A stretch of DNA of 64,000 bases. It comes from Pachysolen tannophilus NRRL Y-2460. Lineage: Eukaryota. The translations under genes were made by a program, and so were the position numbers. The notes beneath the pieces are model-generated. The model was given only the letters and a program-made list of their open reading frames with translations. It had not been told where the DNA came from and did no database searches. The DNA lies in the NCBI GenBank assembly GCA_001661245.1, contig KV454018.1, positions 121,944 through 185,943 on the forward strand. The letters are read 5' to 3'. Shown piece by piece: positions 7,406 through 46,091 of the stretch; the stretch's first letter is position 1; every line of letters begins with the position of its first letter.

Positions 7406-9556
7406 ATGAGTGTGAGTGACTATGCTATTACTCAACTAAGGTCTTCGGTATTCTATCTATTAGACAATGACTTATTACAGTCTGCAGAATTTACTTGTGA
7501 AAGACTTGTGCTGCAAAATCCATCAAATTTGAATTCAATTTATCTTTATGGTTTAGTGTTATACAAGAGACAAAAATTTAAAACTGCTTATAACGTCACG
7601 GCAAATCATTTGAATGTTGGTTGTTCGTATATTTTTGCAAAATGTTCTTTAGAATTATCTTTGGCAAATGAAGGAATTTATGCTTTACAATCAACAATGC
7701 ATTTGTGGAATACTAATGGTAGTGGTATTGGTAGTGGTGGTAATACCACCACTGCTATACAAAATTCAGAATTTGAAAGAAATTCAATTCCTGATGCAGC
7801 TGCTTGTTATTGCCTCTTGGGTAAATTGTATTCTTCTGTGAATGATGTTAAAAATAGTGCAATGAATTATTCAAATGCTTTGAAATTAAATCCATATATT
7901 TTTGAAGCATTTGAAGAATTATGTAAGATGGGAGTTAAAGTAAGACCAAACGCTGTTTATAAAGTAAAGAATTCTGATGATTATTCTGTTAATTTGTTCA
8001 AGACAGTATCGGGGAATTCATCGTTTGATAAATCGAATAATAATAATAATAATAATAACACTGCTGATAATGGTAATGGAAATAATAATAACAATAATAC
8101 ACCACCACCAATACTTTTAACTCCAAACCTCAAATCTTCATCAGCATCAAATATGAAATCTTTTTTCTCCAGACCATTATCGACTCCTGATCATACTGTG
8201 ATTTTAAGTACTCCAAGATTGAAGCAGTTTCAATTACCCGATGCCCCAACAAGAAAGGCTACAAGAAATACAAATAAAGATAATTTCATCAAACCATTCG
8301 ATACAATTAATAGGAGAAGTAGTAGATTAACTGCTTCAAAAGTTACATCAAGATTAATTTCACAACCGCTAAATAATATAACGGGGAATAATAATATGAG
8401 CCAACACCAACAACTGTTACAATCTTCTTCTCAAACAAATCAAAATACTTTGAAAAGAGGAAGAAATTCAGGTTTAAATATTAATAATTTATCATTACAA
8501 AATATAGCTAAAGAAAATCTTCCAGGAGAAAATTATTTAATGAGTTTATATCTTTTATTTGCAAAAGCTTTTAAAGCTATTTGTAAATATGATTGTTTTA
8601 AAGCTATACGATTATTTGATCTTTTACCAGAAAATGAAAAAAATACACCATGGGTCTTAGGAAAATTGGGTAGATTACATTTTGAAATTGTTAATTATGA
8701 AAAAGCAGAAAGTTATTTTATCAGATTAAGAAAATTAGATAGAACAAGATTAGAAGATATGGAATATTATTCAACATTGTTATGGCATTTACATAAAGAA
8801 TCGGAATTAAGTTATTTGTCTCATGAATTACATGAAGTAGATAAAAATGCTCCAGAAACTTGGGTAGCAATTGGAAATTCTTTTTCATTATTAAGGGAAC
8901 CAGATGAAGCAATTAAATGTTTTGAAAAACTGGTTCAATTAAATCCAAATTTTGCATATGCCTACACTTTACAAGGCCATGAATACGTTTCAAATGATTC
9001 ATTTGAAAATGCATTAGAAAGTTTCCGTTCTGCTCTATTAGTTGATGAAAGGCATTATAATGCATTATATGGGATTGGTATGGTGTATTTAAAATTGGGT
9101 GATTTCGAAAAAGCAGAGTATCATTTCCGTAGGGCTATTGATATTAATCCGGTAAATGTCATTTTAATCTGCTGCGTTGGTATGGTTTTAGAAAAATTGA
9201 ACAAAAAAGATTTAGCATTAAAACAATACACTCTAGCTTATAAATTACAGCCATTATCTGCCTTAGCATTATTTAAAAGAGCTCAATTATTATTTTCTTT
9301 ACGGCAGTATGATGAAGCATTACTAGAGTTTGAAAAATTACAAGATTTGGCTCCAGATGAAGCAAGTGTTCATTTCCTATTGGGCCAGTTGTACAAATTA
9401 AGTGGCAAAAAAAATGATGCAATCAAACAATTTACTATAGCTTTGAATCTAGATCCAAAAGGTGCACATCTAATCAAGGAGGCTATGGAAAGTTTGAGTG
9501 ATATTAAAGATGATGAAGATGATGACACGGATGTAGAGGCAAATAAAGAAAATTAG
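7406..9556 (+). CDS. CDC27: Anaphase-promoting complex subunit Cdc27/Apc3
   Basis: N-terminal Apc3 domain and TPR array (DMEYYSTLLWHL, PNFAYAYTLQGHE, RHYNALYGIG, ALNLDPKG). Confidence 0.97.
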   Translation: MSVSDYAITQLRSSVFYLLDNDLLQSAEFTCERLVLQNPSNLNSIYLYGLVLYKRQKFKTAYNVTANHLNVGCSYIFAKCSLELSLANEGIYALQSTMHLWNTNGSGIGSGGNTTTAIQNSEFERNSIPDAAACYCLLGKLYSSVNDVKNSAMNYSNALKLNPYIFEAFEELCKMGVKVRPNAVYKVKNSDDYSVNLFKTVSGNSSFDKSNNNNNNNNTADNGNGNNNNNNTPPPILLTPNLKSSSASNMKSFFSRPLSTPDHTVILSTPRLKQFQLPDAPTRKATRNTNKDNFIKPFDTINRRSSRLTASKVTSRLISQPLNNITGNNNMSQHQQLLQSSSQTNQNTLKRGRNSGLNINNLSLQNIAKENLPGENYLMSLYLLFAKAFKAICKYDCFKAIRLFDLLPENEKNTPWVLGKLGRLHFEIVNYEKAESYFIRLRKLDRTRLEDMEYYSTLLWHLHKESELSYLSHELHEVDKNAPETWVAIGNSFSLLREPDEAIKCFEKLVQLNPNFAYAYTLQGHEYVSNDSFENALESFRSALLVDERHYNALYGIGMVYLKLGDFEKAEYHFRRAIDINPVNVILICCVGMVLEKLNKKDLALKQYTLAYKLQPLSALALFKRAQLLFSLRQYDEALLEFEKLQDLAPDEASVHFLLGQLYKLSGKKNDAIKQFTIALNLDPKGAHLIKEAMESLSDIKDDEDDDTDVEANKEN

Positions 9557-10461
9557 GAAAATTCATTTAAGGTTTCAAAAATTGTATTTTATTTTTTATT
9601 TTTTTCATTTTTTTTTTTTTTTTTTTCACTTCAATTATATTCTTACAAAGTTAAAAATTCTTATATACGAAGTATTTTAAATTACTTAAAATTCCTATTT
9701 TATTTCTCAATTATAATAAAATCTAACCACCGTATCGGCTGTCTAGTTGTCTAACCAAAGAATTACTATTATTTCGTAGAACAACTGATTCAATTTAATT
9801 AGTTAAGCCGCACATAACTATTACCTCTTTTCGACAGATGCGATTAAATCAAGATGCAGCTCTAACGGTAATAAATAGGAAAAATCAAATGCTTTTCCTT
9901 TTCGAATTACTTTCAATTAAATTTTTCCTATAGTACCTATTGAGTTGATATGGCTATTTGATCTTAGCTCCGATAAAATACTAATTAAACTTGAGATAAA
10001 AGATTGTAAATTATTTTTTTTTCTCGTAAATCTTAGGATAATTTTCAATGTAATATAATGAAAGTCATCTGGAGACTTTCTAAAAAATTTTCCTCCCCGA
10101 CCTTTTGTTCACCATATGGACTCAATGGGAAACAATGTTCTGGAAATTTACGAGCAAACACGTTATGATGGAGATTTTAAATTGAAAATATATCAAAAAA
10201 TTTTACTATGATTTAATAAAACTATTTACAAAATTGGCACTTTTATGAGTAAAACTCTAAGTGAATAAAGTTATTGTAAAATCAACTTCCTTATACAAAA
10301 ATGATATATAAAGTTGCAACAAATCTCTTTCTAAATCATCTTTCTTAGTTTTGAATAGTAGGCCATTTTCAAGTTTTGAAGAAGGTTAAAATCAAAAAGT
10401 AAAAAAAACACAAAAAAGACAATAAAAGAATAACTCAATTATCCTGGTATTAAACAACACT

Positions 10462-10803
10462 ATGCTTCCTGTTCCTGTTTTAAGTCAGATTTCAAGAACT
10501 GCATCATCTGTTGTAAGTTCAAACACTCCAATTTTTGCGGTTTTACTAAGGAGAGCATTCTCTTCGTTTAATACCTTCAATGGTGTCCAATACCCAAAAG
10601 CTGTTAGCTTTTTTGCTCGTCAACAGTCATCATTATCAGAGGAAAGTAGTAGACCAAAAAATTTTCAAGAAGAAGAAATTTTGGATAGCGGTATGAGAAG
10701 ATGGCAAATCTTGAATGATTTGAAAGATCGTATCAGACAACAAATTGAGGTAATTGAGCAGTTAGATAAGGAAGTTGCTGACTTTGCTTCTAAACATTTA
10801 TAA
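10462..10803 (+). CDS. Small putative mitochondrial coiled-coil protein, possibly ATPase-inhibitor (IF1/Inh1/Stf1)-like
   Basis: Ser/Arg-rich N-terminus lacking acidic residues. C-terminal heptad LNDLKDRIRQQIEVIEQLDKEV. AT-rich Kozak-like context. Confidence 0.5.
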   Translation: MLPVPVLSQISRTASSVVSSNTPIFAVLLRRAFSSFNTFNGVQYPKAVSFFARQQSSLSEESSRPKNFQEEEILDSGMRRWQILNDLKDRIRQQIEVIEQLDKEVADFASKHL

Positions 10804-11483: not shown

Positions 11484-14400
11484 TTATAAAATATTCTTCT
11501 TTCTTCTGGAAGAACTGTGCCTTAAAGCTCCATTTGCAGCTGCGATAGCCGCTGGTGAACTGTTGGATGTAGTTCCATTTTCCAAGTTTGTGATCATAGG
11601 TACTGGGTTAGTATTCATCGTTCTAGTTCTGTTTATTGACGGTTTACTTCCAGCACTGTTCATCAGATGATCCTCGCTGTGGGCAGATTCAGAAGGCGAT
11701 TTTGGAGATAATAATCCTGAAGCCAATAAATAAGGAGAAGAAAATCCACCAATTTCAGTGTCTAACTTATTTAAATTCTTATTGTTGGAAGAATGACGAC
11801 TTGTTTGTTCTATCTCTGGGGTACGGAAAGCATCACCACCACGAAACTTCATTTGTTGTTGTTGTTGTTGTTGCTGATCTGTTATTGAAGAATTAGATGA
11901 TGACAACGTATCATCATTATTATTGCGACGAGTTAAAGTACTGAAATCTGGATCATTTGTTGTGTCAGCAGTGGTTGGCTCACTACTTTGCAATAAAGTC
12001 GATGATCCATTTGACGATTGTTGACTTTCTGATCCAGCGGTGCCATTATGTGTAGCAACAGGATTACCTGATGACTCTGCCGCTGCTAGTGCCCTTTTAG
12101 CTCTCAACTCCAGATCTTTTTGTTGTGTGTGTTGTCTTGCATTTGCCAACATTTCTTGGGCTTTTTGTAAAGAAACCGTTGGTGCAACGTAAGAAGAAAC
12201 AATAGGCGTTGTTTCATCAAAATCAATTGTTGTCTTAATGAGAGCAGCCATCCAATTACGCATTTCTTCTTTAGTATCAACTGCAAAATAATGTACTTTC
12301 TGCTGTGTAAAAGTCAAACCTTTTCTAGAACCTGGTGCTGGAGGAACCAATTTAAAACAGTACCTACCAGAACCTATTGAAGCCGCATAGAAAGAGGTCA
12401 ATTTATCAGTTTCATTTTGAGTTGCAGGCAAGACCCTATGAGACGTTATATCAATCAAACCTTGTTCTGATTTATCTTTTAATGAGTGGAAATATGATAA
12501 TCGCGTTTTGTGTAAAGCAAAATATCTTGTCTTCCAGTGAACGTTTCCTCTCTTTGACATCCAACCAGAGTAGTCCGCTGTTCTTATTGCATCTTCCGGT
12601 GTTATATGTCTAATTCCTTCTTGGAAAGCAGATGTCTTCTTCTTGTTCCTACTTGATAATCTTTGTGAGCCTGATGATGAGGTATTGCGGAGGCTCTTCA
12701 ATTTTAAAGCTTCGGAAGCCGATCTTTTTTGTTCTCTTTCTTGTACGTTTGGAAGCTTTTTGAATGTTGCAGAGGAAGTAGTGGATGCTTCTTTTGCAGA
12801 AAATGATCTTCTGTAAGGTGATGCTTTTGTTTCTTTTAATTCAGAGGGACTAAGGGAACTTCTTTTTTGAGAATTAGTTGAAGATCTATTTTTCTTAATA
12901 GTTGTCTGAGATAAATCAGTTATATCATCAAAATCATTTAAATCATCATTACCATTTCTATTTCCTTTTATAACTGATAAACGTGAAGGAGTTGAAAACA
13001 AATTCACCAATGAATTTCTTCTTGTATCTGAAGCAGATTTATAATCGCCAACAGTGGTACTATTACTATAAGAAAAAACAGATGAATGACGTTTGTGATT
13101 AGCCTTATCTGGATTCTTAGTAGTGGTACTAATTTCCGAAATTCCTCTTCTGTGAGATCTTGTTGGTGATCCAGTTCTTGTAGCAGGGTAAGATTGTTGA
13201 GAACTGTTTCTTGTGTGATCATAAATTGAAGACGTTGGCCTTGAAGTTGAGTTCTTGGCATTATTAAGATTATTATTTAAGGAATTTGGATTCAATTTTC
13301 TAGGATCATAAGAAGTTGAATTGATGAACATAGATGATCTATTCGATTGTTGATGTAATGGATCAGTCTTGCCTCCTGTCACATTATGAACATTTCCACC
13401 TCCAAATTTATAGCCAAAATTCAATTTTTCTGCCGTTGGAGATAAATGTGAAGGTGGCAGAGGAGGCTTTCTTGGTGAAGTAAATTGTCCATCTAAAGGT
13501 GGTACTCTCAAGGAAGAAGGAGTACCAATTTCCTTTGGAGTTTCATGACTATTTCCTATCAGATCTGGAATTTTTATTATTGGAGAAATTGCATTTCCTG
13601 AATTCAATGGAATTTTCAAATTATGTTCTCTTTCCGGTATTTGCAATTGTTGCGGCTGTTGAGTGTGAGCGTAATTAATAGCAGGTATCTTTGAATCATC
13701 TAATGATTGAGATCTTTTTCTTGTATGTCCCAAAGGAGCAGTTGGCAAATCGGAATCAGCATCAGTAGAATTTTTCGAAAATTGACGATGAACTGAAGGT
13801 GGAGGCATTAAAGAGTTTGAGCTATTTACCGATGCACCAGTTATACTTTTTGCAAACGATCTATTTTTATTTTCAATCTTAAGCGCTTCAATTTCTTTAT
13901 AAATTTCAAACCTTGTACCAAACGAAGAAATATCCAATTCTTTTAAATAAGCCAATTCCAATTCCAATAATATTGCACCTGTAATCTTATGTCTTGCAAA
14001 CTTTCCAGCACTTTCCATATCAAAACCCAAAGAAGCAAAATAAGTTGAAACTTGTTCTGGAGACCAAGATTCCACTTCTGCAGGGTTTAAGGCCATCGAA
14101 TTATTTACATCTCTTGACACCTCGGTTCCAGTTCCACTTGCACTTGCACTTATACTTGCACTTGCACTTGTATTTCCAATCTGAGGACTTTCAATTGCCA
14201 ATTCTTGCAAAGCCTTATCGATATCTTTCATTGTAGTGTTTACTGGTGACTGTTTTGAACCTCCAGTTGAAGCGCCAGTTAAAGCGCTGCCATGGGCGGT
14301 ACTAGAATTAGCAATTTCAGACGACCCGCCATTAGTCCCTGTTCTATACATTGCATTTGCAGAAGGTGTCAATGGACTTGATTGCGACGGACTTGCTAAT

Positions 14401-14825
14401 CTTCTAGATCTTGACCTTAACAATGAAGGTTTATTAAAATTAATCTGGTGATCTTGACATATTTGGGTGAATGCTTTTGGGTAAAGACCAACTTCATTAG
14501 TGGTTAAATTTTTACCCATATACCATCCATCATTATATTCACTATCATCACTAATAACATCAATCTTATCTCCAACTTTCAAAGTTAGTTCATCACCCAA
14601 TCGCGCATTGAATTCTTTAACAGCTTCATAAAGCGTTCCAATATTATCAACACTATTGGTACTACTATTACCAAACGATGTATTTATGGATGGACTATAT
14701 CCTCCAGCTGCTCTTCCATTGTTATTACTATGGCCATTAACAATACCATTTCCATTTCCAGTTCCATTTCCATTATTATTATTATTATTATTGTACAGAT
14801 TCGAAGAAATCGAACTTGAAAACAT
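11484..14825 (-). CDS. BOI2: Boi1/Boi2 polarity scaffold (SH3-SAM-PH)
   Basis: SH3 (EFNARLGDEL...DGWYMG...GLYP), SAM (WSPEQV...SFGTRFEI), Pro-rich SPRKPPLPP and PH (GWMSKR...WKTRYF). Pro-orthologue of BOI1/BOI2. Confidence 0.95.
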   Translation of the reverse strand: MFSSSISSNLYNNNNNNNGNGTGNGNGIVNGHSNNNGRAAGGYSPSINTSFGNSSTNSVDNIGTLYEAVKEFNARLGDELTLKVGDKIDVISDDSEYNDGWYMGKNLTTNEVGLYPKAFTQICQDHQINFNKPSLLRSRSRRLASPSQSSPLTPSANAMYRTGTNGGSSEIANSSTAHGSALTGASTGGSKQSPVNTTMKDIDKALQELAIESPQIGNTSASASISASASGTGTEVSRDVNNSMALNPAEVESWSPEQVSTYFASLGFDMESAGKFARHKITGAILLELELAYLKELDISSFGTRFEIYKEIEALKIENKNRSFAKSITGASVNSSNSLMPPPSVHRQFSKNSTDADSDLPTAPLGHTRKRSQSLDDSKIPAINYAHTQQPQQLQIPEREHNLKIPLNSGNAISPIIKIPDLIGNSHETPKEIGTPSSLRVPPLDGQFTSPRKPPLPPSHLSPTAEKLNFGYKFGGGNVHNVTGGKTDPLHQQSNRSSMFINSTSYDPRKLNPNSLNNNLNNAKNSTSRPTSSIYDHTRNSSQQSYPATRTGSPTRSHRRGISEISTTTKNPDKANHKRHSSVFSYSNSTTVGDYKSASDTRRNSLVNLFSTPSRLSVIKGNRNGNDDLNDFDDITDLSQTTIKKNRSSTNSQKRSSLSPSELKETKASPYRRSFSAKEASTTSSATFKKLPNVQEREQKRSASEALKLKSLRNTSSSGSQRLSSRNKKKTSAFQEGIRHITPEDAIRTADYSGWMSKRGNVHWKTRYFALHKTRLSYFHSLKDKSEQGLIDITSHRVLPATQNETDKLTSFYAASIGSGRYCFKLVPPAPGSRKGLTFTQQKVHYFAVDTKEEMRNWMAALIKTTIDFDETTPIVSSYVAPTVSLQKAQEMLANARQHTQQKDLELRAKRALAAAESSGNPVATHNGTAGSESQQSSNGSSTLLQSSEPTTADTTNDPDFSTLTRRNNNDDTLSSSNSSITDQQQQQQQQMKFRGGDAFRTPEIEQTSRHSSNNKNLNKLDTEIGGFSSPYLLASGLLSPKSPSESAHSEDHLMNSAGSKPSINRTRTMNTNPVPMITNLENGTTSNSSPAAIAAANGALRHSSSRRKKNIL

Positions 14826-15901: not shown

Positions 15902-17815
15902 CTAATCATCTAAATCATGGTTGCCGACATAGTACTGTTCGCTTTGTTGGAATCTTCTTCTTCTATCAGTTTGGTCAGTTTGGTGTAAAACCTCATCATA
16001 AGTAGGTAGCCTTACATCATTCGCGTTTGGGGTTAAACTGTACGGCGCAACATCCTGTTCTTGATTTTGATCTTGATCTTGATTTTGATTTTCGTGATTA
16101 GCAGGAACAGTTGTTGGTGAAGATGAGAACGAAGAATCTAATGAAGAAGAAGAACCTCCGTTATTGTTGGTAAAAATTGCATTTGGAGGAGCCAAATCAT
16201 CTTGATGGGCTTGTAATCCACTTAATACTACCACATCGGTTTCTATGCTTACTTCGGTAAGTGGATCACGTAAAGTAATTTGTTTATCTGATGAAAATCC
16301 TGCATGAAATTTAATTGTATTTTTCCTTGAAATATTACAAGTTTTAAAGCTTGGTGCTACAAAATCAGGTAATATTGCATCTTTAAAAATTGAAGAATCA
16401 ATTTCTAATTCATATAATGTAGCACCTGTAGAAATATCTTTTGCATTTGATCTATTACAATTCAGAAGATCATATTTCGAATTAATCCCTTTTAATTCAA
16501 GTATCTTTTCACGTGTTATCATCGATCTTTTATGTCCTTGAATTAAAACTGTTGTTTCCGAATAAAGTTCAATTTTTAAAGCTTTCATATAAATAATACC
16601 TAATCCTGAACTTTCCCCATTTGGTAAGGTAAATTTTTCTGGAGAAATCCTTGAAACTAGATAAAGTTTATAATTGGGAGTCTTTGTAGGGATTAAAAAT
16701 GCTGGATACCTAAATCTAACTTCAAAATATACTGGTAAATTTATTGGTTTAACATTGGGGAGATAAGAACGATTATCAGATCGTTGATCATAACCCCCAG
16801 TATCGGGACTCTTTGAATTTTGTTTATCAGAATTTTGTAAAGATCTTCTTTGCAGTTGACTTGAACTTGAAGGAGGTGATGGAGATGAAACATCCCCAAA
16901 GATTAAACGTCTAAATATCCCTCCCGGTGCTGTTGTTCTTTTTGAATATTGGCCTCTTGGTGTATGACTTTGTAACCGAGATGTTGTTGATGAAGGCGAT
17001 CCCGATGATGACCCGGAAGATGAACCTGATGCCCGTATTGTTGTAACTGCTGCTGTTGATGTTGATTTTTCTGATCCTGGATAACAAGCTACAATTTGGG
17101 GTAATTTATCTTTTAATGTAAACTCTTTTCTAGTAAAAGTCTGCCTATCATCAGCAAAATTTATATTGGAAGAATCAATTGGTAAAAAGATAAATGGTTC
17201 AAATGATCTAATATTATTTTTAAATAATCCCGGTCTCTTTGCTGTTACTTTTATAAAATATCTTATAGTTGCAAAATCTTTTAATCCACTCAATGAAGGT
17301 GGTAATTTGGTTTCAAGATGTTTTGAAGCTTCAGTGACAAATTCAATGGCACTGCCACTACTAGTATTTGTGTTACTCCCATTAATGAATTGAAATTTAT
17401 TTGAAATTCCTGAAGTTGATTTATGTTTTGAACATGTATTTTTTAAAGGTATCCTAAATTTAAAAGGATAAATATATTCACCGGGAATTAATGTAAACTC
17501 TTTAGCACTGGAAACACTTCTAACGTTTTTAGGTGGAAATACAATTGAAGTATCATATAATAATTTATGAATTTCTATTATTGGTTTCATCTCATTTCCT
17601 CTTGATCTCCTTCTCTGTCTCCTTGAATTTCTTGTCTCTCTTGGAATCTCTATAACAGTTTTAGAAATACCTTCCAATTTCACCTCTATAGCACTTAAAG
17701 TTAATTCAGAACTTACATTCAAATTAATAACCCCATTTATTATATCATAATTAGTGAAAGTTCCACCTGTTTTAGATTTATCAAGCTCAATCTTTAATTG
17801 ACAAGATGATACCAT
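15902..17815 (-). CDS. ART10: Alpha-arrestin (Art10-like)
   Basis: Arrestin-N motifs (VKLEGISKT, HKLLY..IVFPP, GEYIYPFKFRIP, LPPS), PSFKTCNISR and C-terminal PY-type LPTY. ATG at 17815. Confidence 0.75.
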   Translation of the reverse strand: MVSSCQLKIELDKSKTGGTFTNYDIINGVINLNVSSELTLSAIEVKLEGISKTVIEIPRETRNSRRQRRRSRGNEMKPIIEIHKLLYDTSIVFPPKNVRSVSSAKEFTLIPGEYIYPFKFRIPLKNTCSKHKSTSGISNKFQFINGSNTNTSSGSAIEFVTEASKHLETKLPPSLSGLKDFATIRYFIKVTAKRPGLFKNNIRSFEPFIFLPIDSSNINFADDRQTFTRKEFTLKDKLPQIVACYPGSEKSTSTAAVTTIRASGSSSGSSSGSPSSTTSRLQSHTPRGQYSKRTTAPGGIFRRLIFGDVSSPSPPSSSSQLQRRSLQNSDKQNSKSPDTGGYDQRSDNRSYLPNVKPINLPVYFEVRFRYPAFLIPTKTPNYKLYLVSRISPEKFTLPNGESSGLGIIYMKALKIELYSETTVLIQGHKRSMITREKILELKGINSKYDLLNCNRSNAKDISTGATLYELEIDSSIFKDAILPDFVAPSFKTCNISRKNTIKFHAGFSSDKQITLRDPLTEVSIETDVVVLSGLQAHQDDLAPPNAIFTNNNGGSSSSLDSSFSSSPTTVPANHENQNQDQDQNQEQDVAPYSLTPNANDVRLPTYDEVLHQTDQTDRRRRFQQSEQYYVGNHDLDD

Positions 17816-30300: not shown

Positions 30301-33300
30301 AGGCTGTCATTCAAAAGAGTGTAATAACAGCGTAACAACTTCTGCTTTGAAACTAAAGTTTTAATAAAACCAATAATTTTATTCAAGATGTATGTTTCAT
30401 CTCCTCTGTTCAACAAAGCAGTGTTTACAAGAAAACATAAAAGATGTTGCTCGTATGTCTTTTTCAAGGACAACTCAAATATACTTAAATCGTCATTGAT
30501 ATTTACCTCAAACTCCTGTTTCCTTATAACTCCAAACCCCTCGAAATCATCGCGCAGAATACCATAACCAGTTTTAGAAACTTCAAAATCCTTGTCAGAG
30601 TTAGATGCATCCCCACTATTTATTTCCAATATTCCACATTCAATAATTTTCTTTACGTCGATCTCCTCAAGAAAATTCCTAATTGACTCTCCGTATAACA
30701 CATACAGATTATTAAATAGTTCAGAAAGTCTCAAATATGTAACTTTATTATTATCATGACTATCATCATTCTCGCCAAGAAATCCTGGATCAAATTCATC
30801 TTTTAGTAATCTTATAATCTGATAATTAAAAGCCTCAACATAAGGACCTAAGCTAACTTGTGCTTTCATTACAGTACTTATTTTCAAAATTGTGAAAATC
30901 CAGTCATTAATAGAGTATTTTCCAGTCAATTTTGTATTATCTCGAAAAAGATTGCTTACTTTGCTAAGGTTAGTTAACAATATTCCTAACCTATCAATAT
31001 TAGTTGACAAAACTTCTGGTTTATAGCTGAAGTTTTCCCCTTTTTTTTCATCACAAAAATTTTCGTTTCTTTTAAGTAAAGTGAAATCTCTTAGCGGCTT
31101 ATATACATCCCAATAAACGATCATTTCACTCAGTTTGTCATTACAGAAATAGGCATCGTCGGGTATAGTTTCGGAATTTATTTCGATATCATCACATCCA
31201 GCTAGCCACGGAATAAAAAGGGCTAACATATTTAGATCATTTAAATTATCACTATTAATAATCTGTTCCCATTTTGACATCACCCAATCTTGAATTTTAT
31301 CACTGATTTTTGTACCGTTGACTTCAAAAACACCAATGGAGTTTCCAGAATCCCTCAAATTGAAACGTCTGTAAAACTCGTAGGCTTTGAACCAAAAAAA
31401 CATTGATTCTTTCGAAAATACTGCTGGGCCATTAATCTCTGATAAATTGATAATTGTTTCAAATAATTGATTGATTAATTTTTCAAATTTCCAAATTTGC
31501 GAGTTCATTTGAGTTTTGTAATCAACAGATACTATATTTGAGATAAGAACGCATGAAACCGTAGATAATTTCTGAATTTTTACTGCATTTAATGAACACT
31601 TTAGCATCTGATTAATATAACTAGATGCAATTTGATGAGTACTATCTTTTGAAAACAGAAATTCTTTAGAAATTGAAGTCAATAGATTACAGGATAACAA
31701 CGACCAGTAAGTTAGATCATCGTTTTGCAATTCAAAAGTCTTCAATAACGTTTTGCAAATAATATTTAATCTACTGCTCGTTATTAGTTTTGAATCATCA
31801 TAGTTAAAATTATTGGTCCCCAATAAAGAAATTTCTGAAAGGTGGAAAACTAATAATTCTAATGCAGACTGAGCAAATCTTTCATGCACACAGTTATCAG
31901 TCAATTCTACCAAAAAATCAGCAAAAGATTGTGAATTGATTAAGTAATCTGTAATAGAATCAAAACTGTTAGTATTTAATTTTCTCCTTTTAGATGATTT
32001 CATATCAGAATCACTCAAATCTGGATCAGAATTCGGATGAGGATACAATGAAGAAGTCGAAGCTGATAAAAAGCTTTTCAACCTGAAATAATTTGGTAAT
32101 ATTTTTGAAAGTCCAGCTCTCAAAAGCCAAGGGATTGCACTGCTACTTTTTCGACTTAAATTTATGTACTTCAGATTGAACCATGAGTAATTTTTCTTAT
32201 TATATTCGGGGACGATTTTGAGATCGATATCTATAGCTAAAAGTTTATAATCGTTATTATTGCTCAACAATAATTCGAAAAGTTGAGTAATCATGGAATT
32301 TAATTCATTCAAAAGCAACTTCAAGTCATTATTCAATCTAGGTATATTTTTCCTTTTAAGTTCAACTGCTGTTAAAGATAAATTGGAGCTTAAATCTTCA
32401 GAATTTGAATGTACGATTTTTGATCTTTTATCATCATGATCCATTTCAATATCGTCTTCACTCTCCGTTCCGGTAATTAAATCTCTGTTAAATACCCAAT
32501 TATCTCCTACTTGTTTCGGTAATTGATATAAATCAATGAAATCTGGTATTAAGTTAATGAAAATTAGAAGTTGATCTTTAAAAGTCTCATGGTTTATAAA
32601 TTTGATATTGTTGAAAAACCTCATACCAATTCTAAACAATTTATGACAAAGTTTTATATTAACAATGGATAAATTAATTATCAATCTGTTCATTATTTGA
32701 AATATTAAAATTAAAGACTGTGATTCTTTCTTGTTTATTTGAAAATTATTTAAATAAAAATTTTCTATTATTTTAATAATTCTTGAATACAGTGATTCAA
32801 TCGAATTTGTTTCATCTTCAAATACAAATAAATTTGATGAATTTCTTGGATTCAATAAAATATTAAATGTTGACAAAGTTTCAGTAGTCAATTTTTCATT
32901 ATTACTACTAGTTAAAATTTTTTTATTTGCATTATTATCATCTCCTCCAGTCAAGATAAATAAATTTTTTAAAGTGTAATTTATTATATTTTTATATTCT
33001 TTTATTACTAAATGACTTTTAAAATCACTTAAAGAAAGTAAAATGTTCAAACTTTTTGCAAAATCCAACGCAATTGGTTCAAAAATTTCATCTTTACGCG
33101 TCTTGGAATTATAAGATAATGAATATTCAATTATCAAATTTATAGTTGATTGATAATGTTTAATCTTTAATTTCTTTGTCTTGTTGGTAACTATCTTACT
33201 TAAAAGAGTTCTAAGTAGATTTGAAGCTTTTTGCAATCTATCTTCGATAGAATGATTCAATTGTGATTTTGATTTCAAAAATGATATTTTTTCATGATGT

Positions 33301-33590
33301 ATATTTTTAAAAATAGCATCGATTATTTTGAATAAATCATTCGACAGGTATTTATTTATAGTTAAATTAAACGTAGATGCAACTTGCTCGAGCTTATTTA
33401 AACCATCATTACGTTCTTTGATCTTGCTGGATTGTAATAAGTCTATCAATGTTTATTCATTTTTTTATTTTTTTTGGAAGGGAAAATAGTTTGTTAGAAT
33501 CTTGTTTATCTTGTCTTTAAACTTCTTTCTTCTTGTAAAATACAAACACTTACCAATTATAGATTCAATCCCCAAATCATTTGACACCAT
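24342..33590 (-). CDS. TEL1: PIKK Tel1/ATM; exons 33590-33554 and 33442-24342 (3045 aa)
   Basis: Spliced N-terminus MVSNDLGIESIIDLLQSSKIKERND contains the TAN motif. Kinase motifs DDLRQDAIMEQVF, GLGDRHTNNIL, HIDLGVAFDQG; FATC ending GWSPFY. Intron GTAAGT...TTCTAAC...TAG. Confidence 0.97.
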
Positions 33591-36351: not shown

Positions 36352-37161
36352 TTAATTTTTTCTTATATAATTATGTGAAGCACTAGCTTGATCTGTTGGG
36401 AATATAACAGTCTCGGCAATAACAGTATTTGATCTTCTGGTTGTGGCAAAAACAATAACTTCTGCAATGTCTTCAGCTGTTAATGGAATTCTACCATCAT
36501 AAACTTGCTTTGCCTTTTCAACATCACCATAATTTCTAACAATTGAAAATTCAGTTTCAACTGCACCGGGGGCAACTTCAATAACTCTGATATTTGTATT
36601 AATCAATTCTTTTCTTAAAGATTCAGTAAAAGCTTTTAATGCAAATTTAGTTGCACAATAGATTGCACCACCAGGGTATGCATCTCTTCCTGCAATAGAA
36701 CCTAATTGAACAATATCATCAGCATTTCTCTTTTTAAAATCTTTAACAATCTCTTGAGTTAATGCAATCATACCTTTAACATTGGTATCAAACATATCAT
36801 TGATATCTTCTTGTTCAATATCACCAACTTGAGCTTTGCCGATAGCTTTACCAGCATTATTAACTAAAATATCAATTTTTTGAAATTCAGAAGGTAAATT
36901 GCTTAAAAATGGTTTAATAGTTTCAATTTTAGAAACATCTAATACAGATATATGACTCTTAAGATTCTTATAAGTAGATTGTAAATCATTTTGTAATTTT
37001 TGTAAATTTTGTAATCTTCTGGCAACTAAAATCAACTTAATATTCCCATTCAGAGCTGCTGCATACTCCAAGGCAGTAGCTCTTCCAATACCAGCTGAAG
37101 CACCAGTAATTAAAATAATTTTATTAGCAAGACGTTCTGCTGCTTTTGTTCCATAAGACAT
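36352..37161 (-). CDS. NADP-dependent short-chain dehydrogenase (Ymr226c/YdfG 3-hydroxy acid dehydrogenase-like)
   Basis: [17 protein letters not shown] and [10 protein letters not shown]-terminus KAAERLA as in Ymr226c. Confidence 0.9.
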
Positions 37162-39625: not shown

Positions 39626-40999
39626 ATGGCAGAAGAGTTTGCTACGAGTGAGGAGATTAGTGCTGTTTTTGAGAAGTTGAGGAAGACTGCTGCCAACCAG
39701 CAATGTTTTGATTGTTCTCATAAAAATCCTACTTGGACTTCAATTCCATTTGGTATATTAATTTGTTTGGATTGTTCTGCTACTCATAGGAACTTGGGGG
39801 TTCATATTTCCTTTGTCAAGTCGTCTGTTTTGGATGATAAATGGAGTTATCGTCAATTAAGATCTTTAAAATGTGGTGGGAATAATAATTTTAAAGATTT
39901 TTTAGTTAAAAATGGAGGTTCATCATATTTATCAAAAGAACCAAATGAAAAATATAATTCTATGATTGCTCAAAATTATAAGAAAAAACTTGAAGAAAAA
40001 GTTTTACTTGATGAAAAAAAACATCCAAATATTTTGGAAGATATTAATTCTAGTAGTACAAGTTTACTGGATTCGGCATCTTCAACTAGTGGTTCAACTG
40101 ATGATTTTTTCAGTACTTGGAAAAAACCTGTTGCTTCTCCAAGCCCATCCCCATTAGCATCAAGACCTTTGACGCCAAATAATTCAAGTAAAACATCCAC
40201 TCCAGCCCCTGCAATTTCTCAAACTGCAACTCAATCAAAACCACGTACCACAATAACATCTTCAAAATTAAGATCAAATGCTACTTCAAATAAGAAAAAT
40301 AGTATTTTGGGATCAGGTTCAGCTAGTAGAAATAGAGCTAGATTAGGTGTTAAAAAAATTGCAGATAATGATATTAATTTTGAAGAATTTGAAAAACAAG
40401 CTAAAGAAGCAGAAGCTGAAGCAAAAGCTTTAGGAGAGTTAAAGAAAACTGATGATTCAATTGATTCAGGTTTTATTAAACCAAAAATTACTGAATCAAG
40501 ACATAGTTCTATTAGTGTGCCTTCTAATTCGATTTCTTCTTCAAAACCAGTGGAAAATGTTACTCAACAATTTACTAGATTGGGATTTGGTATGGTTGCC
40601 AATTCAGCAAATGGTGCCGCTAATAGTGGTGCTTCTACTCCTTCTGCTCCTAAAAAATTTGCTTCAGAACCTTCATATACCGGTGAAGTTGAAAAGAAAT
40701 TTGGTAATCAAAAAGGTATATCTTCAGATCAATATTTTGGTAGAAACGAATATGACCAACTGGCAGTAGAAGAAGCAAAATCAAAATTACGTGAATTCAG
40801 TGGTGCAACAGGTATATCCTCATCTTCATATTTCGGTGAAGAAGACCAGGCAAGAAATGGAAGGGATGAAGATTTAGAAAGAAAAATTACAGAATTTGCT
40901 GAAAAATATATTGGTGAAGATATGACTGTTTTGAAAAATGCATTGGAATCAGGTGCTGAAAAGTTAGGTGGGTTTTTGAGAGACGCTCTAAGAAATTAG
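39626..40999 (+). CDS. GLO3: ArfGAP Glo3
   Basis: ArfGAP zinc finger CFDC..NPTW...[18 protein letters not shown] and Glo3 motifs [10 protein letters not shown] and GISSSSYFG. Confidence 0.95.
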
Positions 41000-41509
41000 T
41001 AATCTATTATATATCTTGAATGATGGTTATTGATGTAATTTTTTGAACTTGAAACTGAATTGGTGTACTAAAATGAAAAAGATTTTACCTCTTTATATTT
41101 TTTACTTTTTTTTTTTTTTTTAAATTGTTTAAAATTGTTCTTTCCATTATTAATACTATTATTATTATTATTATTTTTATTATTAAATTCCTGATTATCA
41201 CTCATCAGGAAGATGATATTTTCGCTGTTCGGTCTCAATACTATTCAATACAACATATATATATATAAATAAATCATATAATTATTATCGTCGGCTTCAT
41301 AGTGTGTGTACTATGTATATCTCTCGTCTACCGTTAATTTTAAACAAATTTTCGCGGGTAACTCAAAACAAGCCATAAGATGATATTTTTAAGAAGAAAT
41401 CAGCAGATACATAAAGAAGATGAGTTGATATATAAAATGATAACTAAATAGAGATTAATATATTTAATTAATTTTAGTAATATAATATTGAGTTGTTTAT
41501 TTGTTGTAG

Positions 41510-42925
41510 ATGTCGCTGGTTGTTTCACTTAATCAAGAAAAAGAAAAAGAAGTTGGTGTTATTGGTGCTGGGTTGGTTGGTTGTTTAACGGCTTTAGCAC
41601 TTCAAAAAAAAGGTTATAAAGTTATTTTATTTGAATTAAGACAAGATCCAAGGCTTAAGTCGACGAAGGAAAAAAATCTTCGCTCAATAAATTTAGCAAT
41701 TTCTGATCGTGGTATTAAAGCTTTAAAATATGTGGATGAAAATTTGGCTAAGAAGGTATTAGATAAAGTTATACCTATGCGTGGTAGAATGATTCATGAT
41801 TCAAAGGGAAATCAAGAGAGTCAGTTATATGGATTATATGGTGAATCCATTAAATCCATTGATAGAGGTTATTTGAATCAAGAGTTGTTAAATGAAATTG
41901 ATATTATAAATAAATCTGGTGTTGGGTATCCTATTGAAGTTTTGTTTGGTAAAAAATTGATAAATTTAAGTTTTCTTGGAGAAGAAGAAAATCCAACAGT
42001 TACAATTGTTGATCAATCTTCACATCAAGAACAAATTTTTGAATTTGATTTTATTGTTTCTGCAGATGGTGCCTTTTCAGCAACTCGTCATTATTTACAA
42101 AGATATGTAAGAATGACTTTTAAACAAGAATTTATTGATACATGTTATATTGAATTATCTATTCCTCTGGGACCAGGAAATTCATTTTTAATTGATCCTA
42201 ATCATCTTCATATTTGGCCAAGAGATAAATTTATGCTTATAGCTTTACCAAATCAGAATGGTTCTTTTACATCAACTTTTTTCAGTTCTTGGGAACTTGC
42301 AGAATCATTAAATACTGATACAAAAATATTGAATTTTTTCAAAGAACATTTTGAAGATGGTTTGAAATTAATTGGTGAAGATAATTTAATTTCATCTTTT
42401 AAAAATAATCCAAAAGGTTCCTTAGTACAAATCCATTGTAATCCTTACAACTATAAAGGTAAGGCTATATTAATTGGTGATGCTGCCCATGGTATGGTTC
42501 CATTTTATGGTCAAGGAATGAATTGTGGATTTGAATCTTTGAGAATCTTATTAGAAATGTTGGAAAAAAACAATTTCAACACAGAAAAAGCTTTCAACCA
42601 ATATTCAAAAGAAAGACATCAAGATTTAGAAGTTATCTTGAAATTGGCATTAGATAATTATAATGAAATGTCACATGACGTCACTAGTATCGTTTACTTG
42701 ATGAGAAAGAAAATTGATAGTTTCCTTGGAAGATTATTAAGAGGTAAATGGTTACCATTATATACAATGATATCTTTTAGAGGTGATATTCCGTACTCTG
42801 AAGCAATCTCAATTGAAAAAAGACAACAGAACATCATAAAGAAATTAGAACTGGCAATTTTCGTTGGAACCATATATGCTGCTGTAAAAATTTCAAAATA
42901 TTTTGCAAGCAAATTTGTAAAATAA
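41510..42925 (+). CDS. BNA4: Kynurenine 3-monooxygenase
   Basis: GAGLVG FAD motif, RSINLAISDRG, HLHIWPR, GDAAHGMVPFYGQGMNCGFE and a C-terminal membrane anchor. Confidence 0.96.
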   Translation: MSLVVSLNQEKEKEVGVIGAGLVGCLTALALQKKGYKVILFELRQDPRLKSTKEKNLRSINLAISDRGIKALKYVDENLAKKVLDKVIPMRGRMIHDSKGNQESQLYGLYGESIKSIDRGYLNQELLNEIDIINKSGVGYPIEVLFGKKLINLSFLGEEENPTVTIVDQSSHQEQIFEFDFIVSADGAFSATRHYLQRYVRMTFKQEFIDTCYIELSIPLGPGNSFLIDPNHLHIWPRDKFMLIALPNQNGSFTSTFFSSWELAESLNTDTKILNFFKEHFEDGLKLIGEDNLISSFKNNPKGSLVQIHCNPYNYKGKAILIGDAAHGMVPFYGQGMNCGFESLRILLEMLEKNNFNTEKAFNQYSKERHQDLEVILKLALDNYNEMSHDVTSIVYLMRKKIDSFLGRLLRGKWLPLYTMISFRGDIPYSEAISIEKRQQNIIKKLELAIFVGTIYAAVKISKYFASKFVK

Positions 42926-43337
42926 ATCATTTACGTACGAATATGATATTACCTTGTATATACACAGAACGACTTGAACGAATTCTTTCATTTTTTTTTT
43001 CTTTTCCTCTTTTCTCTTTTCTCTTTGCGAATTACTCATTTATATATTTATCTATCATATTATTGTTTGATGGTCTTTATCTAATCTGAAAAAAATTCCC
43101 TTTAAATACTACTGTTAATTAACTCTTTATAGATACAAGAAGTCTGTCATTATGCGGGTCGATATAGATTTGATCCAAAAGAAGAAAACAACATTTTTAA
43201 TGTGATAAATGATAAATGATGATGCGATGAGCTTGATAATTTATATATAAATGTTAGTAATTAAGTTTTTTTTTTTTTATTTCTACTTTTAATTTTTTTA
43301 ATATTGTCAACTATTTATTTGTTGTATGAGTTTTAAA

Positions 43338-44826
43338 ATGGTTGGAGAAAAAGATTTCAAGCTTGCTCTTGTAAGTAATTAATTAATTAATTATTTTTTT
43401 TTTTTTTTTTATCAAGAATTTAGTTTAAAATTTTGGAATTAACTAACGTTGTAACTATCAGGCGTTATCTATACTCACATTGAGGAATAGTAGACATGGA
43501 ACTGATTATCCAGTTGAAAGTAATTATTACCTTTTTTTTTTGCTTTTTCGAATTTCGTTATGAGCAGTAGTGCTAAGATTCATTTTAGAGTTTATTCAAG
43601 AGTTTATAATTAATATTAAAGAAAACAAACAAGGACCTAAGGTATATAAGATAGATGAACTGCAGTTACAAATTTATAAAGATACGTGTGAGGTGAATGA
43701 GTGTACTCTGAATGACTACTCTAATATAACAAAGGAACATTCTCCTGTAAGCTATTCTGAGCCTCCTTCAGGTACAGTTCGTGAAGGCTCAGTGCGCGAA
43801 GGTTCAATTCGTGAAAATTCAGTTCGTGAACTTGAGAATGATTTGATAAAACCTTTACCAAAAGGTCACAGCTTTGAAAAATATAGAAAAGCATTAGAAG
43901 ATATATTGAATATAGATTATGATAACGATTTTGAAATAACTAATTATAATGTTGCAAAAGATTCCAAATTATCAGCAATAATACCACATTTTACCATTAT
44001 AGAAGTTAAAAAATTGATTTCAATTTTTAAATATTTTATCAAGTATCAGAATAATGTTAAGAATGCTAAAATTTTGAAAATTATTGTTGCAATATTCAAA
44101 AAATTAATGGTTTTAAATAGTCCTTTTTTAAAAGATGCAAAGACAATTCAATTACTTTTAAAAGAATTTCGCTTGATATTTATTGAGATTTTAAAATATG
44201 AATATAATGGATTTGATAAGTTTCAAGAGTTTAAGTTTAAAGTGGTTATCAGTTTTCAAAGCTTTGTTATAAATGAATTCTTATCAACCAATATTGAAAA
44301 TGGACTTCAATTTGCTACTAATTACTTAATCAAGATACTTACAGACTGTGAAACATTCATAAAGATAAGGATAAACAGGTTACTATTGAAACCTGAATGT
44401 GAAATCTTACTGGATTTTAAAGATCATTCTTTTTACGAAAATTATCAAGATGCTCTCAATTCTAAATTTAACTTCAGTTTTTTAGAATCACTGTTAATGA
44501 AAAGTTTAGAAGCTGATATTATTACTTATGATAACTTGTATTACTTGATTTTTTATGAAATGAAATTGTTGAAAATTATAATTGATATGTTTATCGATAA
44601 AAAGATTAAACTCGACAAATCAACTAAAATTAAATTAGTTTCTCATGGTAATAAGAGATCACAAAAAGAAAATGATAAAGTAAATCCAAATGACTCCTCC
44701 ATATATCAAAAAATAAAAAATTATAAAAAAAGGTTATTGTCATTTTTACTCGTATTAAACGATTATGAATTGCTAACTTTGTATCATGAGATAAGTTGGG
44801 ACAAATTTATGGTTGATGATTGGTAA
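43338..44826 (+). CDS. MEI4: Probable meiotic DSB protein Mei4/Rec24; exons 43338-43370, 43462-43519, 43589-44826 (442 aa)
   Basis: Splicing yields MVGEKDFKLALALSILTLRN...PVEKFIQEF, resembling the MEI4 N-terminal KLALALAII motif. Close to ERG28, as MEI4 is in S. cerevisiae. The rest is helical and divergent. Confidence 0.65.
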
Positions 44827-45011
44827 AAATGAAAAGTCTTTTATTCGTTTTAGCTGATCCTTTAAGCTTTTATTAGAGAATTGAATAGGCAAAAAAAAAA
44901 AAATAAATAATATAATAAGAGAAAAAAAAAAAAAAAAAAAAAAACTTTTTTCCTATAAGAAGGAATTGATTGTACTTTTAATTAGACAAACATTTTTTAA
45001 TAGAGCTAATT

Positions 45012-46091
45012 CTATTTAACAATTTTTTTCTTTGTTTTCTTATCCTCGTTATTTTTTAAATCTCCGTTACCCCCATCATAACCAATCTTTCCTTCATGGA
45101 AATCTCTTATTGGCTTGAAGTAATCATGCGCCATTGCCTCCTTAGCAGTTAGTCTTTCTTGGTGATCATATCTTAATAATTTATCAATGAAATCTAAACA
45201 TTCATCAGAGACAAGCTGTTGGTTACCCAGATTTACCAATCTACTCCATGGTCTTTTTACAAAATGCCCCAAATCATCATATTCACTCGACAATGTAAGA
45301 TGATACTTATTCAAGTATCTAAATAATTCATCTGTACCCAATATACGTACAATTTGTACAAATTGATCAGTATTAGATTTCCCATGGAAAAAAGGTTCTC
45401 TTTTGAAAACTATTGCAGCAAGTGTTACACCAAACGACCATATATCCAAAGAATAATCATAATATCTTAAATCAACCAATAATTCTGGTCCTTTATAATA
45501 CCTCGATGCTACTCTTACATTATATTCTGTTCCTGGATGATAAAATTCTGCTAAACCCCAATCAATTAATCTTAATTTTTTCTGTTTATGATCTATCATG
45601 ACATTATGAGGTTTAACATCTCTATGCATTATCCCCATTGAATGACAAAAATCCAAGGCTTTTAACAACTCATACATGTAGAACCTAATATCAAAATCTG
45701 TAAAAGTTGGATATAAAATTCTAAAATCTATATTATCTACCAGCTCAAAGATTAAAGCAGGAGTTTTACTTATTGGATCTCTTACAACATCCAATAAATT
45801 TATAATATTTGGACCCCCAGCCAAATTTTGTAAAATTTTAATCTCTCTTTTAATTTTTTTCCTCTTTATTGGTTTAAGTGCCTTAATTATAACTTTCTCT
45901 CCACTAGTTAATTCACATCCATCAAATACTTCAGAGTATTTACCTTTCCCAACTTTTTTAACTATCTCATATTTTTCCTGTGACCTCCATACAATCGTCA
46001 CATTGTCATAATCCCAATATGACTGCGGTTTCTCTTTCAAAACATTAGCATACACTTTACTAATTGATATTGGCTCCTGAAAATTAGACAT
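45012..46091 (-). CDS. CKA1: Casein kinase II catalytic alpha subunit
   Basis: [39 protein letters not shown]1 rather than CKA2 is assigned from adjacency to CAP2/BCY1 (YIL035C-033C). Confidence 0.9.

What the first reader, a model, noticed from the sequence alone, without database searches (positions are those of the whole stretch)
7511..45230. CUG codons appear to encode alanine: alternative nuclear genetic code
Seen: in-frame CTG codons at Cdc27 8930-8932 (FEK[CTG]VQLNP), Cdc27 7511-7513 (ERLV[CTG]Q), Glo3 40760-40762 (YDQ[CTG]AVEEA), Bna4 42167-42169 (IP[CTG]GP), CK2alpha 45230-45228 (VN[CTG]GNQ), the SDR 37053-37051 and Avt 2685-2687. Recalled homologues have Ala at the first three (FEKATQLDP; ERLYAE/ELLYAE; FDEAANREA) and mostly small or polar residues in Bna4, CK2alpha and the SDR; the Avt site is weak. 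Established: CUG=Ala occurs in Pachysolen tannophilus and in Nakazawaea/Peterozyma (NCBI table 26). Inference: this genome belongs to that clade, and every CTG 'L' in the ORF track should read A.
Basis: partly seen in the sequence, partly recalled or inferred. Interest (0 to 1): 0.9.

Follow-up and report, generated by a model that had tools for sequence, protein, structure and literature searches.

The report
Known CUG-to-alanine code of Pachysolen

Summary
The seven cited CTG codons are all in frame at the stated coordinates. The window is Pachysolen tannophilus NRRL Y-2460. Its Tel1 ORF matches the NCBI protein PACTADRAFT_82550 except at CTG codons, where the public protein has Ala. The same holds for seven more genes. 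In all, 32 of 32 CTG codons checked are Ala in public records. Published mass spectrometry on this species found Ala at 97.2% of 907 fully supported CUG positions, and its tRNA(CAG) carries G3:U70 and A73 (PMC4937558, passages read).

Cdc27 sites 36 and 509 do face Ala, and CK2alpha 288 faces A/S/E. An unselected test on three genes with 119-150 homologues each gave no Ala signal. The 16 alignable CTG columns differ from true Leu columns (p=1e-5) and equally from true Ala columns (p=3.5e-5). They look like a random draw of positions. No tRNA lies in the window and no genome is held, so the tRNA could not be examined here.

The parts
7406..9556 (+). Cdc27 (APC/C TPR subunit); CTG at 7511-7513 (res 36), 8414-8416 (res 337), 8930-8932 (res 509)
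   Evidence: Pfam ANAPC3/TPR; res 509 faces A in yeast and human, res 36 faces A in human, res 337 lies in an unaligned low-complexity tract. The exact table-26 ORF translation is not in the public collection.
24342..33590 (-). Tel1/ATM kinase. Public model: exon 33590-33555, intron 33554-33444, exon 33443-24345. 12 CTG in the long ORF (res 174, 346, 521, 663, 713, 843, 871, 944, 1814, 1825, 2196, 2321 of ORF 32693-24345) plus 2 within 33443-32694
   Evidence: 100% hit named Pachysolen tannophilus NRRL Y-2460 PACTADRAFT_82550; the only differences from the table-11 reading are at CTG, and 14 of 14 are A.
61575..63965 (-). Scc3/Irr1-like cohesin subunit, C-terminal 796 aa (the gene runs off the window end); CTG at 63689, 63386, 63020, 62336, 61967 (first bases, minus strand)
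   Evidence: public protein P0271 (1295 aa) differs only at the 5 CTG, all A; weak alignments to two yeast Scc3 structures put L/V, E, I, V/Y and F/M at these sites.
54251..55930 (+). Rsc8/Swi3-type SWIRM-SANT protein; CTG at 54320, 55511, 55622, 55862
   Evidence: public protein P0272 differs only at the 4 CTG, all A; commonest residue is K at 421, A (21 of 119) at 458 and E/S at 538; residue 24 is unaligned.
50521..53256 (-). SNF2-family ATPase (911 aa); CTG at 52932, 51996, 51495, 51282, 50805, 50766
   Evidence: Pfam SNF2-rel_dom and Helicase_C. One search, with 150 representatives: columns are K/E/Q, K/R/E, L/Q/K and D/E/K; two sites are unaligned.
45012..46091 (-). Casein kinase 2 alpha; CTG at 45743-45741 (res 117) and 45230-45228 (res 288)
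   Evidence: res 117 faces H, Y, Y, Y, Y and res 288 faces E, A, S, A, A; the table-26 translation is an exact public protein.
41510..42925 (+). Bna4 (kynurenine 3-monooxygenase); CTG at 41516, 42167 (res 220), 42851
   Evidence: res 220 faces F beside a gap; the other two sites are not aligned; the table-26 translation is an exact public protein.
39626..40999 (+). Glo3-type ArfGAP; CTG at 40067 (res 148) and 40760 (res 379)
   Evidence: res 379 falls in a gap against ArfGAP2; res 148 lies in a low-complexity linker; the table-26 translation is an exact public protein.
36352..37161 (-). Short-chain dehydrogenase (YMR226C-like); CTG at 37053-37051 (res 37)
   Evidence: faces S in S. cerevisiae YMR226C; the table-26 translation is an exact public protein.
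48636..49979 (-). PKA regulatory subunit (Bcy1-like); CTG at 49670-49668 (res 104)
   Evidence: Pfam RIIa and cNMP_binding; the table-26 translation is an exact public protein.
1224..2759 (+). Aa_trans amino-acid transporter (Avt-like); CTG at 1971 and 2685
   Evidence: Pfam. No solved relative. The exact table-26 translation is not in the collection.
20743..22878 (-). EMP70/TM9SF protein; CTG at 22095 and 20946
   Evidence: Pfam EMP70. No solved relative at E<=1e-20. Homologue columns not examined.
11484..14825 (-). SH3-SAM-PH protein (Boi-like); CTG at 14798, 13562, 13460, 12113, 11666, all outside the Pfam domains
   Evidence: Homologue columns not examined.
15902..17815 (-). Arrestin-N protein; CTG at 16855 and 16465
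   Evidence: Not examined further.
362..907 (+). Ribosomal_S21-domain protein; CTG at 509-511
   Evidence: Not examined further.
3385..4269 (+). SH3-domain protein; CTG at 3613 and 3934
   Evidence: Not examined further.
5197..6186 (-). ORF without Pfam family; CTG at 5784, 5778, 5376
   Evidence: Not examined further.
44107..44826 (+). ORF without Pfam family; CTG at 44410 and 44491
   Evidence: Not examined further.
46622..47203 (-). F-actin capping protein beta, 3' exon; CTG at 47197-47195 (third codon of the ORF, possibly intronic)
   Evidence: the ORF matches profile positions 79-237 of 237, so a 5' exon must lie upstream.

Best explanation
The window is a piece of a 947,628-bp scaffold of Pachysolen tannophilus NRRL Y-2460 (order Alaninales). 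This yeast uses NCBI translation table 26. CUG is decoded as alanine by a tRNA with anticodon CAG that carries the alanine identity set (G3:U70, A73) and is charged by AlaRS. The ancestral tRNA-Leu(CAG) has been lost. Every in-frame CTG in the window's genes (59 in the long ORFs plus 2 in the upstream Tel1 exon part) therefore encodes Ala.

Shown here: the organism's identity, and that public protein records read these very codons as Ala. Taken from the literature: the tRNA identity elements and the peptide evidence. Inferred: present-day CUG codons are mostly young. They would arise by point mutation at tolerant sites rather than from conserved GCN alanine codons, which are two mutations away. 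That would explain why they carry almost no conservation signal.
For: -: the Tel1 ORF hits 'PACTADRAFT_82550 [Pachysolen tannophilus NRRL Y-2460]' at 100%.
- the only 12 differences over 2783 residues are the 12 CTG codons, all A in the public protein; 2 more CTG in the upstream exon part also match under table 26.
- public P0271 and P0272 differ from the table-11 reading only at CTG (5 of 5 and 4 of 4 are A).
- 5 of 10 table-26 ORF translations are exact NCBI/UniRef sequences on the same 947,628-bp contig (9 CTG). Total: 32 of 32 CTG checked are A.
- CTG columns are unlike Leu columns. Mean f(L) is 0.16 against 0.37-0.50 for the other five Leu codons (MWU p=1e-5). Leu is commonest in 4 of 16 columns against 305 of 434 (Fisher p=3e-4). 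The method decodes 56 of 60 control codons correctly.
- Cdc27 residues 36 and 509 face Ala. CK2alpha residue 288 faces A/S/E.
- Literature. PMC4937558 (passages): 16,824 CUG positions; 907 fully supported by MS/MS, 97.2% as Ala; tRNA(CAG) has G3:U70 and A73. PMC5951914 (passages): the Ala clade is Pachysolen, Nakazawaea and Peterozyma.
- NCBI taxonomy places the species in the order Alaninales.
Against: - The Ala in the public proteins follows from the table declared for the record. It shows that the reading is already on file, not that it is biologically right. The independent proof is the published mass spectrometry, which I read only in passages.
- Conservation within this window gives no Ala signal. 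In 16 alignable CTG columns, mean f(A) is 0.05 against 0.33 for GCN (p=3.5e-5). Ala is commonest in 1 of 16 columns against 57 of 131 (p=0.005). An empirical substitution model ranks Q, K, T, S, N, E, C, V and M ahead of A (A at -3.6 log units), while random sets of 16 true Ala columns decode as A in 195 of 200 trials.
- Four of five Scc3 sites face hydrophobic residues in two yeast Scc3 structures (weak alignments). Tel1 residue 174 sits in a column that is 61% Leu.
- Within Cdc27's own TPR array, the position of residue 509 is A in 4 other repeats and L in 4, so it does not discriminate.
- No tRNA(CAG) could be inspected.
Confidence: 0.97

Rival explanations
1. Standard code: CUG is leucine here, as in most eukaryotes, and the Ala matches are chance.
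For: Leu is the commonest residue in 4 of 16 alignable CTG columns. Tel1 residue 174 lies in a column that is 61% Leu. Scc3 sites face L/V, I, V/Y and F/M. Bna4 residue 220 faces F.
Against: CTG columns differ strongly from those of the other five Leu codons (MWU p=1e-5; Leu commonest 4 of 16 against 305 of 434, p=3e-4). The 4 of 16 equals the base rate of Leu-commonest columns among all positions (18%). The organism is P. tannophilus, for which MS/MS found Ala at 97.2% of 907 supported CUG positions (PMC4937558).
Confidence: 0.01
2. CUG is serine, as in the Candida (Ser1, table 12) or Saccharomycopsis/Ascoidea (Ser2) clades.
For: Some sites face Ser: SDR residue 37, Tel1 residues 663 and 2321, Rsc8 residue 538 (S in 37 of 119), and CK2alpha residue 288 in one of five chains. 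The substitution model ranks S (-1.3) above A (-3.6). The genome is AT-rich and CTG is rare, as in Candida.
Against: f(S) in CTG columns is lower than in true Ser columns (p=3e-4). Ser is commonest in 2 of 16 columns, which equals the base rate of 11%. The organism's identity places it in the Ala clade, not Ser1 or Ser2. The published MS shows Ala.
Confidence: 0.01
3. Ambiguous decoding: CUG is mainly Ala but with a biologically meaningful minority of Leu or another residue, as Ascoidea asiatica does with Ser and Leu.
For: CTG columns are a mix of hydrophobic and polar sites. PMC4937558 reports 8 positions with Ala plus another residue and 18 with a non-Ala residue among the supported positions.
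Against: The same paper finds similar numbers of deviations for the unambiguous AUG codon. It attributes them to strain differences or errors. The mixed column pattern equals a random draw of positions and needs no dual decoding.
Confidence: 0.02

Closest known systems
NCBI translation table 26 (Pachysolen tannophilus nuclear code; CUG-Ala clade: Pachysolen, Nakazawaea, Peterozyma)
   Same: It is this very case. The window's proteins are the deposited P. tannophilus NRRL Y-2460 proteins with Ala at every CTG checked (32 of 32).
   Different: Nothing differs in kind. One nuance: in three genes of this window the CTG codons do not sit at conserved Ala columns (1 of 16). PMC4937558 describes Pachysolen CUG as reassigned 'mainly at conserved alanine positions'.
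CUG-Ser1 code of Candida/Debaryomyces yeasts (table 12)
   Same: The same codon is reassigned, in a neighbouring budding-yeast lineage. CTG is rare and the genome is AT-rich.
   Different: The meaning there is Ser, through a Ser-type tRNA(CAG). Here it is Ala, through an Ala-type tRNA (literature). The window's organism is outside that clade.
CUG-Ser2 / stochastic Ser-Leu decoding in Saccharomycopsis and Ascoidea
   Same: A third independent change of CUG in budding yeasts (PMC5951914; abstract start of PMC6041473 in the listing).
   Different: Two competing tRNAs exist there. For Pachysolen the published data show essentially unambiguous Ala.

Membership tests
CUG-Ala yeasts (NCBI table 26, order Alaninales) | The organism belongs to the Pachysolen/Nakazawaea/Peterozyma clade | tested here: met
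   The Tel1 hit is named Pachysolen tannophilus NRRL Y-2460 at 100%. Eight genes match public proteins on one 947,628-bp contig. Lineage; clade membership from PMC5951914.
CUG-Ala yeasts (NCBI table 26, order Alaninales) | tRNA with anticodon CAG carrying the Ala identity elements G3:U70 and A73 | not testable with these tools
   No tRNA in the window (ARAGORN; Rfam) and no genome held. Reported for this species in PMC4937558.
CUG-Ala yeasts (NCBI table 26, order Alaninales) | Absence of tRNA-Leu(CAG) and tRNA-Ser(CAG) | not testable with these tools
   This needs the whole genome, which is not held.
CUG-Ala yeasts (NCBI table 26, order Alaninales) | Peptides carry Ala at CUG positions | not testable with these tools
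   Published: 97.2% of 907 fully supported CUG positions are Ala (PMC4937558). No proteomic data are accessible here.
CUG-Ala yeasts (NCBI table 26, order Alaninales) | CUG codons avoid conserved Leu columns and sit at Ala columns | tested here: inconclusive
   Avoidance of Leu columns is met (p=1e-5). Preference for Ala columns is not seen in the unselected set (A commonest in 1 of 16; f(A) p=3.5e-5 below GCN). Among hand-read sites it is seen only at Cdc27 36 and 509 and partly at CK2alpha 288.
CUG-Ala yeasts (NCBI table 26, order Alaninales) | Deposited gene products of this locus are translated with CTG=Ala | tested here: met
   32 of 32 CTG codons in 8 genes. Five further ORF translations were not found as exact sequences, probably because the gene models differ.
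CUG-Ser yeasts (table 12 / Ser2 clade) | CUG codons sit at Ser columns, and the organism lies in the Ser1 or Ser2 clade | tested here: not met
   Ser is commonest in 2 of 16 columns, equal to the base rate. f(S) is below that of true Ser codons (p=3e-4). The organism is in the Ala clade.

The most novel reading that the evidence does not exclude
In P. tannophilus, CUG-alanine codons may be a distinct, evolutionarily young class of alanine sites. In this window they are placed like a random draw of weakly constrained positions (A commonest in 1 of 16 columns, L in 4 of 16, hydrophobic in 6 of 16; base rates 4%, 18% and 38%). Ordinary GCN alanine codons show A commonest in 57 of 131. Because CTG is two mutations from any GCN codon but one from TTG, CTN, GTG, CAG and CCG, new CUG codons would arise mainly as Leu/Val/Gln-to-Ala replacements at tolerant sites. 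If this held genome-wide it would qualify the published description ('mainly at conserved alanine positions'). It would also give a mutational footprint for dating the codon capture.
Probability: 0.35. Interest if true: 0.3.

Novelty: already known. Interest (0 to 1): 0.08.

Why it matters
In practice, any translation of this window with the standard or bacterial table puts Leu where the cell puts Ala at 61 codons in 19 genes, so table 26 must be used. Scientifically, the CUG=Ala reassignment was a notable discovery in 2016. It is now in the literature, in NCBI's code tables and even in the name of the order (Alaninales), so re-finding it adds nothing new. One useful lesson for the scan is that a handful of hand-picked 'CTG faces Ala' sites is not evidence. 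In this true-positive genome an unselected column test on 16 sites gave no Ala signal, so window-scale conservation tests can miss real sense-codon reassignments when the codon is rare and young.

Tried and rejected
- Whole-genome route to tRNA(CAG): no genome is held. ARAGORN and Rfam find no tRNA or any RNA family in the 64 kb.
- Codetta-like decoding from homologue columns: the controls work (56 of 60 codons decoded), but CTG comes out undetermined. Q, K, T and S rank marginally best, A is at -3.6, and L is below the ten best.
- Scc3 homologue search returned only the window's own protein, so that search was lost. The PDB fallback gave only weak alignments.
- PDB searches for EMP70 and the Avt-like transporter found nothing, so their four CTG sites stay unexamined.
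- Intragenic TPR register test in Cdc27: the position of residue 509 is A in 4 and L in 4 other repeats, so it does not discriminate.
- Earlier findings of the scan: none for this genome or for these words.
- Sites not examined against homologues: 23 of the 59 CTG codons (the Boi-like, arrestin, S21, SH3, EMP70 and Avt ORFs, two ORFs without a family, Bcy1 and Cap2).
- Paper not seen: Riley et al. 2016 (PNAS), the second 2016 report of CUG=Ala, is recalled only. No supplements were opened.


Full report
**Observation.** The window is AT-rich (about 29% G+C) and holds 26 ATG-started ORFs of at least 150 aa. One of them, 4303-4866 on the minus strand, is an artefact of a 379-base run of N at 4370-4748. 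In-frame CTG occurs 59 times in 19 ORFs, out of 13,938 codons in the 25 real ORFs. The same trinucleotide occurs 344 and 37 times in the other two frames.

**What the genes are.** Pfam identifies Cdc27, a Tel1/ATM kinase, an SNF2 ATPase, Rsc8/Swi3, a Scc3-like protein, CK2 alpha, kynurenine 3-monooxygenase (Bna4), a Glo3-type ArfGAP, a YMR226C-like SDR, Bcy1, Cap2, EMP70, an Aa_trans transporter, a ZIP transporter and others. This is an ordinary budding-yeast chromosome segment.

**Organism.**
- The Tel1 ORF hits 'hypothetical protein PACTADRAFT_82550 [Pachysolen tannophilus NRRL Y-2460]' at 100% identity, on a 947,628-bp contig.
- Residue by residue, the only 12 differences over 2783 positions are the 12 CTG codons, where the public protein has Ala.
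- The public model adds a 12-codon first exon (33590-33555), a 111-base intron, and an upstream exon part with 2 more CTG. These also match under table 26.
- The public Scc3-like (P0271) and Rsc8 (P0272) proteins differ from the table-11 reading only at their 5 and 4 CTG codons, all Ala.
- Of ten further ORFs translated with table 26, five (Glo3, Bna4, CK2 alpha, SDR, Bcy1; 9 CTG) are exact NCBI/UniRef sequences on the same contig. Five (Cdc27, Avt-like, EMP70, SNF2, arrestin) were not found as exact sequences, most likely because my ORF boundaries differ from the deposited models.
- In all, 32 of 32 CTG codons that could be compared are Ala in public records.
- NCBI taxonomy places the species in Pachysolenaceae, order Alaninales.

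**Literature.**
- PMC4937558 (Genome Res 2016; I read passages returned, not the whole text or supplements). The Pachysolen tRNA(CAG) has A73 and the G3:U70 pair. There are 16,824 CUG positions in 4210 genes. Of these, 907 are fully supported by fragment ions, and 97.2% of those read as Ala. The rare exceptions are comparable to those at AUG.
- PMC5951914 (Nat Commun 2018; passages). This defines an Ala clade of Pachysolen, Nakazawaea and Peterozyma, beside the Ser1, Ser2, Leu1 and Leu2 clades.

The cited sites.**
- Cdc27 residue 509 faces Ala in S. cerevisiae and human. Residue 36 faces Ala in human.
- CK2 alpha residue 288 faces E, A, S, A, A. The uncited CK2 alpha residue 117 faces H, Y, Y, Y, Y.
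- SDR residue 37 faces Ser.
- Bna4 residue 220 faces Phe beside a gap.
- Glo3 residue 379 falls in a gap.
- The Avt-like protein has no solved relative.

An unselected test.**
- I aligned three genes with many homologues, masking CTG as X: Tel1 with 119 homologues, the SNF2 ATPase with 150 representatives and Rsc8 with 119. Alignments were made.
- A Codetta-like score decodes 56 of 60 control codons correctly.
- Of 22 CTG codons, 16 lie in columns at least 70% occupied.
- These columns are unlike true Leu columns. Mean f(L) is 0.16 against 0.37-0.50 (p=1e-5), and Leu is commonest in 4 of 16 against 305 of 434.
- They are equally unlike true Ala columns. Mean f(A) is 0.05 against 0.33 (p=3.5e-5), and Ala is commonest in 1 of 16 against 57 of 131 (p=0.005).
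- They are also unlike true Ser columns (p=3e-4).
- An empirical substitution model ranks Q, K, T and S marginally first and A 3.6 log units behind. Random sets of 16 real Ala columns decode as Ala in 195 of 200 trials.
- Against the base rates of all 3449 other columns, the CTG columns look like a random draw:

| Commonest residue in column | CTG columns | Base rate, all other columns |
|---|---|---|
| Ala | 1 of 16 | 4.2% |
| Leu | 4 of 16 | 18% |
| Hydrophobic | 6 of 16 | 38% |
| Ser | 2 of 16 | 11% |

- Weak alignments to two yeast Scc3 structures put hydrophobic residues opposite 4 of 5 CTG sites.
- Within Cdc27's own TPR array, the position of residue 509 is Ala in four other repeats and Leu in four.
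- Within this window, then, conservation shows that CTG is not an ordinary Leu codon, but it does not identify Ala.

**Mechanism.**
- Shown here: the organism's identity, and the deposited Ala reading at these codons.
- From the literature: an Ala-type tRNA(CAG) charged by AlaRS, which ignores the anticodon, and loss of tRNA-Leu(CAG).
- Inferred: present CUG codons are young. CTG is two substitutions from any GCN codon but one from TTG, CTN, GTG, ATG, CAG, CCG and CGG. New CUG-Ala codons should therefore appear mainly at sites that tolerate replacement, which fits the near-random column pattern.
- This nuance differs in emphasis from the published phrase 'mainly at conserved alanine positions'. 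It rests on only 16 columns from three genes.

**What could not be done.** No proteomic data are accessible. 23 of the 59 CTG sites were not compared with homologues. The scan's earlier notes hold nothing on this genome.

**Verdict.** This is a real feature, correctly interpreted and already known (NCBI table 26). It has practical value only as an annotation instruction: translate this window with table 26.

Noticed in passing
window 4370-4748 (also single N at 5 and 4790): A run of 379 N (assembly gap or masked stretch) creates a spurious 187-aa ORF at 4303-4866 on the minus strand in the ORF list.
   Followed up: partly
window 33590-32694 (minus strand): The public Tel1 model starts 262 residues upstream of the longest ATG ORF. 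It has a 12-codon first exon (33590-33555), a 111-base intron (33554-33444), and then one long exon. Two extra CTG codons lie in 33443-32694.
   Followed up: yes
window 61575-64000 (minus strand): The Scc3-like gene runs off the window end. The public protein is 1295 aa, and the ORF seen here begins at its residue 500.
   Followed up: partly
window 46622-47203 (minus strand): The Cap2 ORF matches only profile positions 79-237 of the capping-protein beta family. A 5' exon and an intron must therefore lie upstream, and the CTG at 47197 may be intronic.
   Followed up: no
window ORFs 7406-9553, 1224-2756, 20746-22878, 50524-53256, 15905-17815: The table-26 translations of these five ORFs are not present as exact sequences in the public collection, whereas five other ORFs are. 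The deposited gene models probably use other starts or introns.
   Followed up: no
window ~8020-8100 (Cdc27 residues ~207-232): There is a long Asn-rich low-complexity tract inside Cdc27. S. cerevisiae Cdc27 has a similar poly-N tract at a non-homologous place.
   Followed up: no
all 25 real ORFs: The trinucleotide CTG occurs 59 times in frame but 344 times in codon frame 2 and 37 times in frame 3. This is a strong frame asymmetry that I did not analyse further.
   Followed up: no
proteins P0002 and P0273 (homologues, no locus): The closest non-self relatives are unnamed assembly-derived proteins: Tel1 at 38% identity and Rsc8 at 56%. They are much closer than any named species (Kuraishia and Komagataella at about 32-46%). 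They may come from another Ala-clade yeast. At the window's CTG sites they carry Y, I, L, N, L, I, S, L, M, S and K, Q, Q.
   Followed up: partly
window 1-64000: No tRNA gene (ARAGORN) and no Rfam family at gathering score was found anywhere in the 64 kb.
   Followed up: yes
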